This document shows positions 43,030 to 44,624 of a stretch of DNA of 47,955 nt, in pieces. The stretch spans positions 1-47,955 of the IMG/VR virus record IMGVR_UViG_3300045988_175607; one strand, written 5' to 3'. The notes below the pieces were generated by a model. It was given only the letters and a program-made list of their open reading frames with translations, was not told where the DNA came from and ran no database searches. Numbering within the stretch: position 1 is the stretch's first letter; every line of letters starts with the position of its first letter. This stretch comes from a virus. Made by a program: the position numbers and the translations under genes.

Positions 43030-43730
43030 TTAATTATTATTGCAACCACAGCCATACCCACAACCATAAGTTGTATAAGTATTGCCAGTATAAGGATTAG
43101 CGACGATATAGGCAGGAGTTGCAGAAGGAGAAAGTTTAGAAATCAAATAAGCATTCTGTTCGCTCTGAGAGATCTGACCTTTCAGAGAAGTATTTTCTGC
43201 TGTTAAAGAGCTAATCTTATCATTGACTAAGAAGTCAAGTATCTGACGAGTGTTATTATTGTTCGCATCAATAATGTCACGAGTACTATCAGAAACAACT
43301 TGACGATTTTGACAAGCTTGAGTCGCAAGATTGTAGTTAAGATCCGCAAAATTTGAGGACACAAGCATTTTGTTATCACAACAGCACTGCGCATTGACTG
43401 CGGCCATGTTCTGTAACTGATTGGACAATGAGAACGTGCCGTTAGTAATTGCAGAAGTGATTGCATTTGTGTTCTATAAATTAGTCATGCCAATACCACA
43501 GAGGTCATTTTGTAAGACTCTTACGCCATTATTTGTGGCTTCTGTGGAATTGGTTACTGCACTATGAGTGTTAGCAATCTGATTACTTAAACCATTCATA
43601 TCAAAACCATAAGTTATAGCGTTGCGGGTTAAAGCGCCGTTTGTGCCAGCGCCGGAATCATTTCCGCCCCAGCCATTACAATTATTACCCCAACCGCCCA
43701 TAAAACAGAACAGGAAGAGTATTATAATCC
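43030..43730 (-). CDS. late Gly/Asn/Cys-rich protein, exon 2 (1 TAG sense codon at 43471)
   Basis: ...GGWGNNCNGWGGNDSGAGTNGAL...AQCCCDNKM...TYGCGYGCGCNNN; continuous with the exon 1 frame through W(T|GG). Confidence 0.55.
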
Positions 43731-44530
43731 CAAATTTGTTATCGGATAAACTTTTTATTTTATCCTTCTATCACTTCATTTTGTGATAGTTCAGCATATC
43801 TTTTCAATTGCTTGCGCAATTGTCGCGGCCTCGTGGAAATTCTTAAAAGAATTGAAATATTAACAATTTCTACATTATATCTTATATAAAATAGAATTTA
43901 TAATTGTGAGTTTGATTCCTTCGACCATTTAATACTTTAGAAATAGTGCCTTTATTTATTCCTAATATAGCTCCAGCTTCAGTAACAGATTTAAAAACCA
44001 ATTCTTCATTTGTTATTATATTTTTTGCCACTACTGGTTTTTCCTAATTTTTTAATCCAGTTCTTCTCGCATGATGATCATTTTCTTGAGCTGTACACCA
44101 TTCTAAATTCTCTACACTATTATTGGTTTTATTGCCATCTTTATGATTTACATATGGTAAATTATTAGGATTGTCAATAAAATATAAAGCTACTAATCGA
44201 TGTATTCTAAAAGTCTTCTTTATTCCATTTTGACAAAAAGTATAAGTTAAATAGCCATTAACATTTAAATAAGGCGTAAGTATTTTATTTTTTTTAACAT
44301 TTTTTACATTACCAAAATTAGAAATGGCATAATTATTAAACTCATTAATTATTATATATTTTTCCATTTTGTATCCTCCTTATTATGACTTATTAAGTCT
44401 TTAAAGAGATATAATATTCAGTTTATCTATGCGTTGCCCCTGACTGCAGTTTCTGCAGCCTTCGGTTCGGATTAGCATCTCAGCCTTCCCGCTTAATTCC
44501 GCGATTTACCCTTGGCAGATTATTCCTACC
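43731..44530 (-). ncRNA. group I-type intron (family B) on the minus strand with an HNH homing endonuclease ORF
   Basis: Minus-strand 5' part gcgggaaggctgagatgctaatccgaaccgaagg...ctgcag-aaa-ctgcag...gcaacgcatag; 3' part tccacgaggcc, aagatatgctgaac, hairpin ctatcac/gtgatag, hairpin ggataaa-ataaaaag-tttatcc, gataacaaatttG. Confidence 0.6.
43882..44367 (-). CDS. HNH (HNH_3 plus NUMOD-like HTH) homing endonuclease, 1 TAG sense codon
   Basis: FGNVKNVKKNKILTPYLNVNGYLTYTF...HRLVALYF...VNHKDGNKTNNSVENLEWCTAQEN; after the TAG, ...VFKSVTEAGAILGINKGTISKVLNG; RBS aaggagg. Confidence 0.7.
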
Positions 44531-44624
44531 AAGCGCCGTTGCCTTCACCAAATCCATCACCATTGCGATTACCACTCGCAGCAGCGATATCAGACAGACT
44601 ATAACCATTACCATAATTGAACAT
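44531..44624 (-). CDS. late Gly/Asn-rich protein, exon 1
   Basis: Strong RBS aaaggagg; MFNYGNGYSLSDIAAASGNRNGDGFGEGNGA(W). Confidence 0.5.

What the first reader, a model, noticed from the sequence alone, without database searches (positions are those of the whole stretch)
43030..44624. Late Gly/Asn/Cys-rich protein (ends ...YGCGYGCGCNNN, contains QCCCDNK) encoded in two exons around an HNH-endonuclease intron on the minus strand
Exon 1 (strong RBS) encodes MFNYGNGYSLSDIAAASGNRNGDGFGEGNGAW and reaches in-frame TAG/TAA stop codons 2-5 codons after the predicted splice point; the compositionally matching remainder lies 800 nt downstream directly after a family-B intron 3' terminus. The TGG at the junction is regenerated from T|GG, so both spliced and unspliced readings give Trp. 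The protein is low-complexity with Cys clusters and does not resemble standard virion proteins. It could be a fibre or adhesin, or a secreted, bacteriocin-like peptide carried in the tail-fibre region. The exact exon 1 boundary is the least certain of the eight.
Basis: partly seen in the sequence, partly recalled or inferred. Interest (0 to 1): 0.65.

Follow-up and report, generated by a model that had tools for sequence, protein, structure and literature searches.

The report
Intron-split phage gene, function unknown
A late phage gene really is split by a self-splicing group I intron that carries an HNH homing-endonuclease gene; once joined it encodes a 265-residue protein from a very common but uncharacterised gut-phage family, with a hydrophobic helix exactly at the splice junction.

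Summary
On the minus strand, exon 1 is 44624..44528, the group I intron is 44527..43731 (797 nt), and exon 2 is 43730..43030. Trp33 is split T|GG and the product is 265 aa.

Proof of the gene structure:
- P1 (CUUGGU/GCCAAG, with U.G at the splice site), P10 (7 bp) and a terminal G.
- A ~90% identical phage lacks exactly these 797 nt.
- Uninterrupted proteins read ...GAWWIIILFLF... across the junction.
- The RNA core covaries in 55 relatives (91.7% paired against 30-38% in controls).

Other relatives carry the same intron without the ORF, so three allelic states exist. The intron ORF is an I-HmuI-type HNH endonuclease. The HNH gene and exon 2 each contain one in-frame TAG that must be read as Gln; this phage recodes TAG in its late genes.

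The protein is not just Gly/Asn/Cys-rich. It has a conserved N-terminal peptide, a near-invariant hydrophobic helix, long helices and a Cys-rich tail. It belongs to phrog_16490 (at least 7,397 homologues, no known function). It lies in a conserved four-gene cassette next to a stand-alone BclA-C/ExsF/TNF-fold protein, at the tail-fibre/lysis junction of Bacillota phages.

A fibre-like reading is plausible but unproven. A bacteriocin reading is unsupported. The intron is an ordinary kind; the cassette is the open question.

The parts
44635..44641 (-). Shine-Dalgarno sequence (AAGGAGG) 10 nt upstream of the exon 1 ATG
   Evidence: Read directly from the sequence.
44528..44624 (-). Exon 1 (97 nt): codons 1-32 (MFNYGNGYSLSDIAAASGNRNGDGFGEGNGAW) plus the first base (T) of Trp33. 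Its last six bases, CUUGGU (44533..44528), form the 5' strand of P1.
   Evidence: The intron-less allele L122 aligns up to 44528. P0001 and P0002 read GAWWIIIL across the junction. The last exon base U pairs with G of the internal guide sequence.
43731..44527 (-). Group I intron, 797 nt. It begins AGGAAUAAUCUGCCAAG and ends GAUAACAAAUUUG (terminal G at 43731).
   Evidence: These 797 nt are exactly absent from L122. The same intron without an ORF (229 nt) sits at the same site in L129/L130. Core covariation is strong. One family member, L013, passes Rfam RF00028.
44511..44523 (-). Internal guide sequence. AUAAUCU (44523..44517) pairs with the first 7 nt of exon 2 (P10). GCCAAG (44516..44511) pairs with the last 6 nt of exon 1 (P1).
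   Evidence: Complementarity read from the sequence. The MFE fold of the compact allele recovers P1.
44427..44504 (-). 5' half of the catalytic core: P3 5' strand (44504..44499), P4-P5-P4', P6-P6a-P6', then J6/7 and the P7 5' strand GCAUA(G) (44432..44427).
   Evidence: Alignment A2 of 55 cores with the structure projected from this sequence: P4, P5, P6 and P6a all show compensatory changes.
43838..44422 (-). Insertion inside the intron, between P7 and the CCACGAG/P3' block. It carries the endonuclease gene and replaces about 17-22 nt of the compact allele.
   Evidence: Alignment of the target intron with the 229-nt ORF-less intron of L129. Positions 1-105 and 691-797 match; the middle does not.
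43882..44367 (-). Intron-encoded HNH homing-endonuclease gene (161 aa) with its own AAGGAGG RBS and an in-frame TAG at codon 108 (44046..44044).
   Evidence: Pfam NUMOD4, HNH_3, NUMOD1 and I-HmuI NUMOD-like. phrog_59 at E 1e-49. Full-length match to I-HmuI, PDB 1U3E, E 1.7e-17, running through the TAG position.
43731..43836 (-). 3' half of the core: CCACGAG (43836..43830), P3' (43828..43823), P8 hairpin (43822..43805), J8/7 + P7' AAAAGAUAUGC (43804..43794), P9 hairpin (43788..43769), a second 3' hairpin (43765..43744), and GAUAACAAAUUUG (43743..43731).
   Evidence: Coordinates. P3 and P8 covary. The 3' hairpins differ by compensatory changes among the three window copies.
43030..43730 (-). Exon 2 (701 nt): GG completes Trp33, followed by residues 34-265 and TAA. 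In-frame TAG at codon 118 (43476..43474).
   Evidence: L122 resumes at 43730. The spliced CDS is 798 nt and 96.9% identical, without gaps, to the intron-less CDS. The TAG aligns with a near-invariant Gln.
42591..43010 (-). Conserved downstream partner gene (139 aa, phrog_20016, two in-frame TAGs): a stand-alone BclA-C/ExsF/C1q-TNF jelly-roll protein.
   Evidence: phrog_20016 at E 3e-52. 6,289 homologues at 70-80% identity. AF2 pLDDT 89. Foldseek against PDB: E 2e-8, TM 0.73-0.76 to F-BclA-CTD, ExsFA, BxpB and BclA. Adjacent to the target in 57 of 72 loci.
44656..45284 (-). Two conserved upstream cassette genes: 123 aa (45284..44913, phrog_21718-like) and 79 aa (44895..44656, phrog_22984-like position). 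Both contain in-frame TAGs.
   Evidence: Translations. Same order in L122-L126, L129 and L186. Co-occurrence 62 of 71 and 68 of 76.

Best explanation
GENE STRUCTURE (shown, about 0.95).
A late, minus-strand phage gene is interrupted after the first base of codon 33 by a 797-nt group I intron. In the transcript, the intron's internal guide sequence pairs with the last six exon 1 bases (P1, U.G at the cleavage site) and with the first seven exon 2 bases (P10). A P3-P8 core with the P3/P7 pseudoknot folds, and the terminal G defines the 3' splice site. Ligation yields a 798-nt mRNA for a 265-aa protein.

The intron carries an I-HmuI-type HNH endonuclease gene in a peripheral region between P7 and P3'. 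That enzyme is expected to nick intron-less alleles and drive homing (inferred). Consistent with this, close relatives show three states: no intron, an ORF-less intron, and intron + HNH. Exon 1 also travels with the intron.

Both the host gene and the endonuclease gene contain a TAG that must be read as Gln. So both proteins are made in full only once the phage's late-stage TAG suppression is on (inferred from the window-wide pattern and from the literature).

PROTEIN (architecture shown; function inferred).
- Conserved N-terminal peptide (YSLSDIAAA-G).
- Gly-rich linker.
- Near-invariant hydrophobic helix WWIIILFLFCF, created across the splice junction.
- Gly/Trp-rich linker.
- About 155 residues of long, low-charge helices with a CCC motif.
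- A Pro/Tyr/Gly/Cys-rich tail.

It is a member of phrog_16490 and the third gene of a conserved cassette: phrog_21718, phrog_22984, phrog_16490, phrog_20016.

My most likely functional reading (about 0.4): it is the elongated stalk or anchor of a two-component fibre-like appendage whose head is the neighbouring TNF/BclA-C-like trimer. The hydrophobic helix would serve as a membrane-inserting or anchoring element. The ExsF trimer, which docks the N-terminal peptide of a fibre protein, is the working analogy.
For: Splice sites:
- P1/P10 complementarity and the terminal G.
- The intron-less allele L122 breaks exactly at 44528|43730, and the spliced CDS is 798 nt, the same length as the L122 CDS, at 96.9% identity.
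- P0001 (265 aa, 97%) and P0002 read GAWWIIILFLFCFMGGWGNN. MT838220 reads GAWWIIILFLFAF.
- phrog_16490 matches in one stretch across both exons.

RNA:
- At least 118 viral loci carry the family's blocks, and 116 of 123 matches also have the 5' core.
- 91.7% of cells are paired against 30-38% when partners are slid. 27 of 35 pairs have double changes. No shuffle in 500 reaches the observed values.
- L013 scores 67.9 bits on RF00028.
- The compact allele folds with z = -5.3.
- Two sibling introns in the window splice an AAA_24 gene back to a full-length Pfam match.

Mobility:
- L129/L130/L131 carry an ORF-less intron at the same site.
- Exon 1 and the first 102 intron nt are identical to L129. 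Against L122 there are 9 mismatches in 97 exon 1 nt and 16 in 701 exon 2 nt.

HNH.

TAG = Gln:
- Long minus-strand ORFs appear only if TAG is read through.
- The TAGs align with near-invariant Q118 and with invariant Q9 of the partner.
- Precedents: bioRxiv 10.1101/2021.08.26.457843 and PMC7886860.

Protein:
- AF2 architecture; hydrophobicity; family size.
- Synteny.
- Partner fold.
- ExsF peptide-docking precedent, PMC12357932.
Against: Intron:
- Rfam RF00028 does not detect the target, the ORF-less allele or sibling A.
- Splicing was not observed experimentally.
- P7 is invariant by construction and P3 was used to select alignment rows, so those two helices rest on weaker evidence. The selection rate still helps: 74 of 109 members have an exact 6-nt complement, against roughly 8% that I estimate by chance.

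Function:
- No homology to any characterised protein.
- The AF2 model is poor overall (pLDDT 60, pTM 0.24).
- Hydrophobic periodicity in the helices is weak, so a coiled coil is not established.
- A near-invariant hydrophobic helix is unusual for a fibre stalk.
- No physical link between target and partner has been shown, and the two are never found fused.
- The cassette always lies next to lysis genes as well as fibre genes, so position does not discriminate.
Confidence: 0.85

Rival explanations
1. The protein is a membrane protein of the infected cell that acts in lysis or lysis timing. It would be a bitopic protein with a short N-terminal tail, one transmembrane helix and a large C-terminal domain. 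That is the architecture of phage T4 holin T, or of accessory lysis proteins such as PBSX XhlA. The small soluble cassette proteins would be its regulators.
For: - A hydrophobic helix (Kyte-Doolittle 15-residue mean 2.2) that is near-invariant across the family.
- The cassette abuts holin or endolysin genes in every context examined. Window: after a phrog_13712 holin. Butyrivibrio: directly before ELLD and GH25 endolysins. Dulem virus 33 and Bajarodcaudo virus 5: after the amidase or the holin plus peptidase.
- TAG recoding is reported to be concentrated in lysis genes.
Against: - No similarity to any holin family in Pfam or PHROGs; phrog_16490 is 'unknown function'.
- These phages already encode separate holin-like proteins.
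- There are almost no flanking positive charges to fix a membrane topology.
- The partner and the other cassette proteins have no signal peptide or TM segment, and the partner's fold is a fibre-head fold.
- Tail-fibre and lysis modules are neighbours in most Bacillota phages, so adjacency says little.
Confidence: 0.3
2. There is no splicing. The region holds three independent genes: a 32-34-aa peptide, a free-standing HNH endonuclease, and a ~222-aa protein starting at the ATG at 43701.
For: - Free-standing HNH genes between phage genes are common (general knowledge).
- An ATG exists at 43701, and database gene callers produced 220-aa 'exon 2 only' proteins (P0003-P0006).
- The Rfam group I model does not hit the region.
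Against: - There is no RBS before the 43701 ATG.
- The frame is open and conserved upstream of that ATG (IIILFLFCF), and it continues exon 1 exactly as in uninterrupted homologues.
- Exactly 797 nt are absent from L122.
- The flanking non-coding RNA has a covarying group I core, with P1/P10 guide pairing.
- ORF-less copies of the same RNA sit at the same site.
Confidence: 0.03
3. The product is a secreted, bacteriocin-like Gly/Cys-rich peptide, or a spanin-type envelope-fusion protein.
For: - Gly-rich and Cys-rich composition, and an N-terminal conserved 'LSDIAAA-G' stretch that loosely recalls leader peptides.
- An N-terminal hydrophobic helix followed by long helices loosely recalls i-spanins and viral fusion proteins. 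There are weak coronavirus HR1 hits at E 0.1-0.7.
Against: - It is 265 aa, with no double-glycine cleavage motif and no linked transporter or immunity gene.
- The cassette is phage-late and syntenic in 57-68 of about 72-76 loci.
- Hosts are overwhelmingly monoderm Bacillota with no outer membrane to fuse.
- There is no lipoprotein partner.
- The PDB hits are not significant.
Confidence: 0.04

Closest known systems
Mobile group I introns of Bacillus phages SPO1/SP82 that encode I-HmuI/I-HmuII (HNH nicking endonucleases), and the phage T4 td/nrdB/nrdD introns
   Same: - A self-splicing group I core with P1/P10 guide pairing and a terminal G.
- A phage gene as host.
- A homing-endonuclease ORF looped out of a peripheral region.
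- An endonuclease that aligns full-length with I-HmuI (1U3E, E 1.7e-17).
- Intron-plus and intron-minus alleles in close relatives.
   Different: - The host gene is a late gene of unknown function, not a DNA-metabolism gene.
- The ORF sits between P7 and P3'.
- Rfam RF00028 misses the RNA.
- The endonuclease ORF contains a recoded TAG.
Intron- and intein-rich, stop-codon-recoded gut phages (crAss-like Delta/Zeta groups, PMC7886860; Agate and other recoded clades, bioRxiv 10.1101/2021.08.26.457843)
   Same: - TAG or TGA is read as sense in late genes.
- Many group I introns are present.
- Intron ORFs themselves carry recoded stops, proposed to delay endonuclease production until late infection.
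   Different: This phage appears to infect Bacillota, judging from its strong Shine-Dalgarno sites, 32% GC, and related contigs binned with Clostridium. The split gene family (phrog_16490) has not been discussed in those papers, as far as I could search.
Bacillus exosporium anchoring system: the ExsF/BxpB trimer docking the N-terminal leader of BclA or F-Anchor fibres (PMC12357932; PDB 9H3D, 7R1M, 8D02, 1WCK)
   Same: The neighbouring 139-aa protein has the same stand-alone TNF-like jelly-roll fold (E 2e-8, TM about 0.75). The target has a strongly conserved N-terminal peptide and an elongated body, like the fibre proteins that ExsF binds.
   Different: - Sequence identity is only 12-17%, and Pfam BclA_C is not hit.
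- The target has no collagen repeats and no exosporium-leader motif.
- This is a phage late cassette, not a sporulation locus.
- No interaction has been shown.
Phage T4 holin T (class III holin): a short cytoplasmic N-terminus, one TMD and a large C-terminal domain containing Cys
   Same: The same gross layout (about 31-aa N-tail, one hydrophobic helix, about 220-aa C-terminal domain with conserved Cys), and a position next to lysis genes.
   Different: - No sequence or profile similarity.
- The hosts are monoderm.
- Separate holin-like genes are present.
- This comparison is from memory of the T4 literature and was not tested here.

Membership tests
Group I intron | P1 helix between the 5' exon end and an internal guide sequence, with a U.G wobble at the cleavage site | tested here: met
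   Exon CUUGGU (44533..44528) pairs with GCCAAG (44516..44511), and the last exon U pairs with G. The MFE fold of the compact allele recovers this helix.
Group I intron | Terminal G at the 3' end of the intron, and P10 pairing of the guide sequence with the 3' exon | tested here: met
   The intron ends ...AAAUUUG (43731). AUAAUCU (44523..44517) pairs with GGAUUAU at the start of exon 2: 7 bp, one of them G.U.
Group I intron | Conserved catalytic core P3-P4-P5-P6-P7-P8 with the P3/P7 pseudoknot, supported by covariation | tested here: met
   Alignment A2, 55 sequences: 91.7% paired against 30-38% slid; 27 of 35 pairs with double changes; covariation 0.555 against 0.174 shuffled, 0 of 500. Caveat: P7 is invariant by the search pattern, and P3 was used to select rows.
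Group I intron | Score at or above the gathering threshold of Rfam RF00028 (a detection criterion, not a biochemical definition) | tested here: inconclusive
   The target, its ORF-less allele L129 and sibling A fall below threshold (best 13.6 bits). A member with the same conserved blocks (L013 992-1195) scores 67.9 bits against a gathering score of 50.
Group I intron | Precise excision: exons are colinear with an uninterrupted allele | tested here: met
   L122 lacks exactly 44527..43731. P0001 and P0002 are uninterrupted 265- and 260-aa proteins.
Group I intron | Guanosine-dependent self-splicing | not testable with these tools
   Needs in-vitro transcription and a splicing assay, or RNA-seq.
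I-HmuI-like HNH homing endonuclease | HNH catalytic motif flanked by NUMOD4 and a C-terminal NUMOD1/HTH DNA-binding module | tested here: met
   Pfam NUMOD4 7-44, HNH_3 72-97, NUMOD1 110-145, I-HmuI NUMOD-like 124-158. 1U3E aligned 11-159 to 11-169, E 1.7e-17. The C-terminal module requires read-through of TAG108.
I-HmuI-like HNH homing endonuclease | Site-specific nicking of the intron-less allele | not testable with these tools
   Only indirect evidence: three allelic states and a co-conversion-like exon 1 tract.
phrog_16490 (function unknown) | Full-length profile match | tested here: met
   E 3e-24, residues 14-253 against profile positions 16-283 of 286. The Butyrivibrio homologue scores E 5.6e-35.
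Spanin (i-spanin/o-spanin) | A diderm host and a partner outer-membrane lipoprotein | tested here: not met
   Hosts are overwhelmingly Bacillota, including the cultured Lachnospiraceae Enterocloster hominis and Butyrivibrio sp. INlla21. No cassette protein has a lipobox or signal peptide (sequences).
Double-glycine-leader bacteriocin | A short precursor with a GG cleavage motif and linked transporter or immunity genes | tested here: not met
   265 aa, uniform 200-300-aa family. Neighbours are phage cassette genes. No transporter was seen in the called genes.
Holin (any Pfam/PHROG holin family) | Profile match to a holin family | tested here: not met
   No Pfam, NCBIfam or PHROG holin match for the target. 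A separate gene at 45492-45920 matches holin phrog_13712.
BclA-C / ExsF / C1q-TNF fold (partner gene 42591-43010) | Compact jelly-roll fold superposable on BclA-CTD or ExsF | tested here: met
   AF2 pLDDT 89, pTM 0.83. Foldseek PDB: E 2e-8 to 2e-6, TM 0.67-0.76 to 9H38, 7R1M, 8D02, 9H3D, 1WCK. The trimeric state was not tested, and there is no sequence-level Pfam match.

The most novel reading that the evidence does not exclude
The conserved cassette phrog_21718, phrog_22984, phrog_16490, phrog_20016 is a previously unrecognised and very widespread module of gut Bacillota phages (also present in some crAss-like phages). In it, a protein with a fusion-peptide-like hydrophobic helix and a long helical stalk is capped or docked by an ExsF/BclA-like TNF-fold trimer. 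This would be a two-component, membrane-engaging appendage used at infection or release, distinct from known tail fibres, holins and spanins.
Probability: 0.25. Interest if true: 0.65.

Novelty: new member of a known kind. Interest (0 to 1): 0.4.

Why it matters
For annotation, this locus is a worked example of how introns and stop-codon recoding together hide a gene. Standard callers emit a 34-aa fragment, an HNH gene truncated at TAG, and a 220-aa 'exon 2' protein (the database indeed holds such 220-aa fragments). The correct 265-aa product and its hydrophobic helix appear only after splicing and reading TAG as Gln.

The intron RNA family is common in viral contigs (at least 118 loci in one scan), yet the Rfam group I model largely misses it. 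A dedicated covariance model would therefore recover many split phage genes.

Biologically, the three allelic states (empty site, ORF-less intron, intron + HNH) in near-identical phages give a clean natural snapshot of the homing cycle in a recoded phage.

The host gene belongs to one of the larger uncharacterised gut-phage families (at least 7,397 homologues). It is paired with a spore-surface-like TNF-fold protein, so finding out what this cassette does would annotate thousands of phage genomes.

Tried and rejected
- **Rfam on the target:** gathering scan of the whole window, permissive scans of the target, of sibling A and of the ORF-less allele. No usable group I hit, so I tested the structure by hand plus covariation instead.
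- **ARAGORN:** no tRNA or suppressor tRNA in the window.
- **Megablast of 40000-47955 against deposited phages:** no match.
- **Target protein against family libraries:** Pfam, NCBIfam and PADLOC found nothing.
- **Target protein against PDB by sequence or profile:** only insignificant coronavirus HR1 and bZIP coiled-coil hits. I rejected these as homology; they probably explain the 'spike protein/glycoprotein' label on the cr116_1 homologue.
- **Foldseek of the target's AF2 model against PDB:** noise, and the model is low-confidence.
- **Partner protein by sequence:** phmmer against PDB found nothing; only the fold search worked.
- **My own first guess:** that exon 2 begins at the ATG at 43701 or at GGC/GGT just after it. 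Rejected once MT838220 showed the hydrophobic segment belongs to the protein.
- **A-ENA 'sporesilk' helical-hairpin fibres (PMC13111695) as a relative:** rejected. Those rely on Lys-mediated isopeptide bonds, and this protein has only 1.5% Lys.
- **Heptad-periodicity test:** weak, so I do not call the helices a coiled coil.
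Full report
**1. What is in the sequence**

Read on the minus strand, the region starts with AAGGAGG-N10-ATG at 44624. Its frame encodes MFNYGNGYSLSDIAAASGNRNGDGFGEGNGAW and then runs into TAG-GAA-TAA. About 160 nt further on, a second AAGGAGG precedes a 161-codon ORF (44367..43882). Downstream, a long frame ends ...YGCGYGCGCNNN-TAA at 43030 and contains QCCCDNK.

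- The window's minus-strand block (41.8-48 kb) yields long ORFs only if TAG is read through. Exon 2 has a TAG at codon 118 and the HNH ORF has one at codon 108.
- The exon 2 frame is open upstream of its first ATG. There it encodes ...IIILFLFCFM, and no ribosome-binding site precedes that ATG.

**2. Where the exons join**

The joined protein hits one PHROG (phrog_16490, function unknown) in a single stretch spanning both exons (E 3e-24).

tblastn against deposited phages found uninterrupted homologues. MT838220 reads ...GGNGAWWIIILFLFAFCGWGG..., which shows that the hydrophobic segment belongs to the protein.

That pointed to a junction at ...GCU UGG U | AGGAAUAAUCUGCCAAG ... AACAAAUUUG | GG AUU AUA. 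The sequence supports it:
- The intron's GCCAAG pairs with exon CUUGGU, with the canonical U.G at the cleavage site (P1).
- The adjacent AUAAUCU pairs with GGAUUAU at the start of exon 2 (P10).
- The intron ends in G.

Three independent data sets then confirmed it to the nucleotide:
- The big protein database holds P0001 (265 aa, 97% identical) and P0002. Both read GAWWIIILFLFCFMGGWGNN, exactly my predicted ligation product and length.
- The contig encoding P0001 (L122) aligns to window 47484..44528 and continues at 43730..40525. So precisely 44527..43731 (797 nt) is missing. The spliced 798-nt CDS is 96.9% identical to the L122 CDS without gaps. Sliding the boundaries by one base in either direction breaks the match, so they are unique.
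- W32, W33 and the following hydrophobic residues are invariant or nearly so in 70 homologues.

The 3' site is right.

**3. Is the intervening RNA a group I intron?**

Rfam's RF00028 does not detect it, so I tested it directly.

The window holds two sibling elements with the same conserved blocks (GGAAGGCUG..AUGCUAA, CAACGCAUAG, CCACGAG, GAUAUGCUGAAC, GAUAACAAA..UG). They lie at 18262-18584 and 18873-19954 on the plus strand. Removing them restores a full-length AAA_24 ATPase (PF13479, profile positions 2-195 of 195, E 2.8e-40).

A scan of viral contigs for CCACGAG-N22-48-GATATGCTGAAC returned at least 118 loci. Of 123 matches, 116 also carry the AACGCATAG block upstream. The gap is either 10-41 nt (compact) or 400-2500 nt (ORF inserted, as here). 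One such member (L013) passes RF00028 at 67.9 bits. Against the Rfam consensus, the family's CAACGCAUA corresponds to J6/7 + P7, and AAGAUAUGC corresponds to J8/7 + P7'.

I drew P3, P4, P5, P6, P6a, P7 (pseudoknot) and P8 on the target and projected them onto an alignment of 55 ORF-excised cores. The result:
- 91.7% of cells form standard pairs, against 30-38% when partners are slid by 1-3 columns.
- 27 of 35 pairs show changes on both sides.
- The covariation score is 0.555 against 0.174 for shuffles (0 of 500 reach it).

P4, P5, P6, P6a and P8 were not used for selection, and all of them covary. P3 was used to choose rows. Even so, 74 of 109 members have an exact 6-nt complement, against roughly 8% that I estimate by chance. 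P7 is invariant because of the search pattern, so it is uninformative.

The ORF-less allele folds much better than shuffles (z = -5.3), and the fold recovers P1, P4/P5, P6/P6a and the 3' hairpins.

I conclude this is a bona fide group I intron of a phage family that the Rfam model covers poorly. Self-splicing itself was not shown.

**4. The endonuclease, and evidence for mobility**

The intron ORF has NUMOD4, HNH_3, NUMOD1 and I-HmuI-like domains. It aligns end to end with I-HmuI of phage SPO1 (PDB 1U3E, E 1.7e-17). That alignment runs through the TAG at codon 108, so the C-terminal DNA-binding module exists only if TAG is decoded.

Close relatives show three states at this one site:
- Empty (L122).
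- A 229-nt ORF-less intron with the same boundaries (L129/L130; also L131 by length).
- Intron plus HNH (the window).

The first 102 intron nt are identical to L129. The 3' 107 nt are 94% identical, and by eye one difference is a compensatory change in P8. The HNH segment replaces about 20 nt between P7 and CCACGAG.

Exon 1 is identical between the window and L129, although their exon 2 proteins are only about 89% identical. The empty allele differs at 9 of 97 exon 1 positions, against 16 of 701 in exon 2. That is the co-conversion-like footprint expected from homing. It is an inference, not a demonstration.

**5. TAG recoding**

The TAG in exon 2 aligns with a near-invariant Gln (Q118). The first TAG of the neighbouring gene aligns with an invariant Gln (Q9). 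This supports TAG = Gln.

No suppressor tRNA lies in the window, so presumably it is encoded elsewhere in the genome.

Late-gene recoding, and recoded stops inside intron endonuclease genes, have both been described (bioRxiv 10.1101/2021.08.26.457843; PMC7886860). This aspect is therefore known biology.

**6. What the protein is**

It has no Pfam, NCBIfam, PADLOC or PDB match.

The family is very large and uniform: at least 7,397 proteins at E <= 1e-3, and 1,315 clusters at 50% identity. Nearly all are 200-300 aa and none is fused to a known domain.

AF2 with 69 sequences gives a modest model (pLDDT 60) with a clear layout:
- A short helix at 10-18.
- A hydrophobic helix at 32-43.
- Disordered Gly/Trp-rich linkers.
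- Long helices at 77-126 and 131-232 (pLDDT 73-91 over about 150-230).
- A disordered Cys-rich tail.

The hydrophobic segment scores 2.2 on a 15-residue Kyte-Doolittle window. Its flanks carry almost no charge, and heptad periodicity in the helices is weak. The distant crAss-like homologue keeps every element.

**7. Genomic context**

Where examined, the gene sits in the same cassette: a 123-143-aa Q/Y-rich protein (phrog_21718), a 72-81-aa helical protein (phrog_22984), the target (phrog_16490), a 139-143-aa protein (phrog_20016), and often an acidic 115-183-aa protein. Two annotated phage genomes were checked only for the ~140-aa gene that follows the homologue.

Across 80 bacterial-genome loci the flanking genes co-occur in 62 of 71, 68 of 76 and 57 of 72 cases. 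These are lower bounds.

The cassette lies at the boundary between tail-fibre and lysis genes, but its order relative to the lysis genes varies. It is after a holin-like gene here, before two endolysins in Butyrivibrio, and after the lysis genes in Dulem virus 33 and Bajarodcaudo virus 5.

Hosts are overwhelmingly Bacillota, including cultured Lachnospiraceae.

**8. The partner protein**

The phrog_20016 neighbour is much more conserved than the target: 70-80% identity where the target is 50-60%.

It gives a confident all-beta model (pLDDT 89). That model superposes on Bacillus spore-surface TNF-like trimers (F-BclA-CTD, ExsFA, BxpB, BclA) at E 2e-8 and TM about 0.75, and then on C1q/TNF domains and cyanophage tail-fibre tips.

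Among viral models, stand-alone 135-142-aa versions occur in contigs labelled sipho-, myo- and podovirus. Elsewhere the fold is the distal head of collagen-like fibres, whiskers and S74 tail fibres.

ExsF is a precedent for a stand-alone trimer of this fold docking the conserved N-terminal peptide of a fibre protein (PMC12357932).

**9. Function: what I commit to, and how firmly**

*Shown:* the architecture, the family, the cassette and the partner's fold.

*Inferred:* the role. I favour a two-component fibre- or anchor-like appendage, at about 0.4. The target would be an elongated stalk with a membrane-inserting or anchoring helix, and the TNF-fold trimer would be its head or dock. My reasons:
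- The partner's fold is a fibre-head fold.
- No other cassette protein has a signal peptide or TM segment, which fits assembly in the cytoplasm.
- The cassette occurs in phages of both monoderm and diderm hosts and in several morphotypes.
- The target's composition is fibre-like.

The main rival, at about 0.3, is a bitopic membrane protein acting in lysis control (a T4 holin-T-like layout). It draws support from the near-invariant hydrophobic helix and the neighbouring lysis genes.

The spanin and bacteriocin readings fail their defining features. The 'no splicing' reading is effectively excluded.

**10. Verdict**

The intron is a new member of a well-known kind, in a context (a recoded, intron-rich gut phage) that has been described before.

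The value of the finding lies in three things: the exact gene model, the evidence that this intron family largely escapes the standard RNA model, and the pointer to a very common uncharacterised phage cassette with a spore-surface-like partner.

Interest is moderate, at 0.4.

Noticed in passing
window 18187-20578 (+): An AAA_24 ATPase gene is split by two sibling introns of the same RNA family. Intron A is 18262-18584 (323 nt, no ORF). Intron B is 18873-19954 (1082 nt, with a LAGLIDADG ORF at 19028-19837). The spliced product matches PF13479 over profile positions 2-195 of 195 (E 2.8e-40).
   Followed up: yes
window 18256-18279 (+): In sibling intron A, the protein-level junction (Walker A motif GEPKSGKT) requires the 5' exon to end in G. 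That G pairs with C in P1 (GGAGAG/CUCUCC) rather than forming the canonical U.G wobble. This would be an unusual 5' splice site, if it is correct.
   Followed up: partly
window 5359-6306 (+): A 310-aa ORF with an N-terminal PG_binding_1 domain and three in-frame TAGs. It is a probable endolysin, sits on the mostly TAG-free 'early' strand and far from the holin-like gene, yet it is recoded like the late genes.
   Followed up: partly
window 8829-9725 (+) and 14984-15988 (+): Two GIY-YIG endonuclease ORFs with 6 and 3 in-frame TAGs. The second is fused behind an N-terminal hydrophobic and helical region. They are probably further mobile-element endonucleases whose translation depends on TAG suppression.
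   Followed up: partly
window 39138-40283 (+) and 40721-41218 (+): A 371-aa ORF with repeated HTH-like modules, a weak DUF5889 match and 6 TAGs. Next to it is a RuvC-like resolvase with 5 TAGs. So TAG recoding is not confined to the minus-strand block.
   Followed up: partly
whole window: No tRNA gene, and so no TAG suppressor, was found in the 48 kb, although dozens of in-frame TAGs are present. The suppressor must lie elsewhere in the genome; related contigs are 85-238 kb.
   Followed up: partly
window 42591-43010 (-): The gene directly downstream of the target encodes a stand-alone BclA-C/ExsF/C1q-TNF-fold protein (AF2 pLDDT 89; Foldseek E 2e-8 to Bacillus exosporium proteins). No sequence library recognises it.
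   Followed up: yes
window 41818-42135 (-) and 42136-42555 (-): The last two genes of the late operon. One is a 104-aa protein with an HExxH motif and weak Peptidase_M78/IrrE-like hits. The other is an acidic 139-aa helical protein with a weak hit to the 'collagen-like repeat preface domain' (NF033172, E 0.02).
   Followed up: no
L129 5743-5971; L130; L131 6001-7025: Close relatives carry a 229-nt ORF-less version of the target intron at the identical site; for L131 this is inferred from match length only. L131 is a 175-kb contig binned in a Clostridium sp. MAG. Even this compact version gets no Rfam group I hit at E <= 1 (tested on L129).
   Followed up: yes
L042 1486-1704, L015 3624-3845, L044 13518-13821 and 14842-14969: Several viral loci fetched for the intron family also contain other group I introns nearby that Rfam does detect. 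These phages are multiply infested with introns from more than one lineage.
   Followed up: no
L003 4701-6026 (crAss-like phage cr116_1): The gene annotated 'spike protein/glycoprotein' (QOR59421.1) is a distant member of the target family with the same architecture. It is followed by a 136-aa protein that looks all-beta. The 'spike' label probably comes from insignificant coronavirus HR1 similarity.
   Followed up: partly
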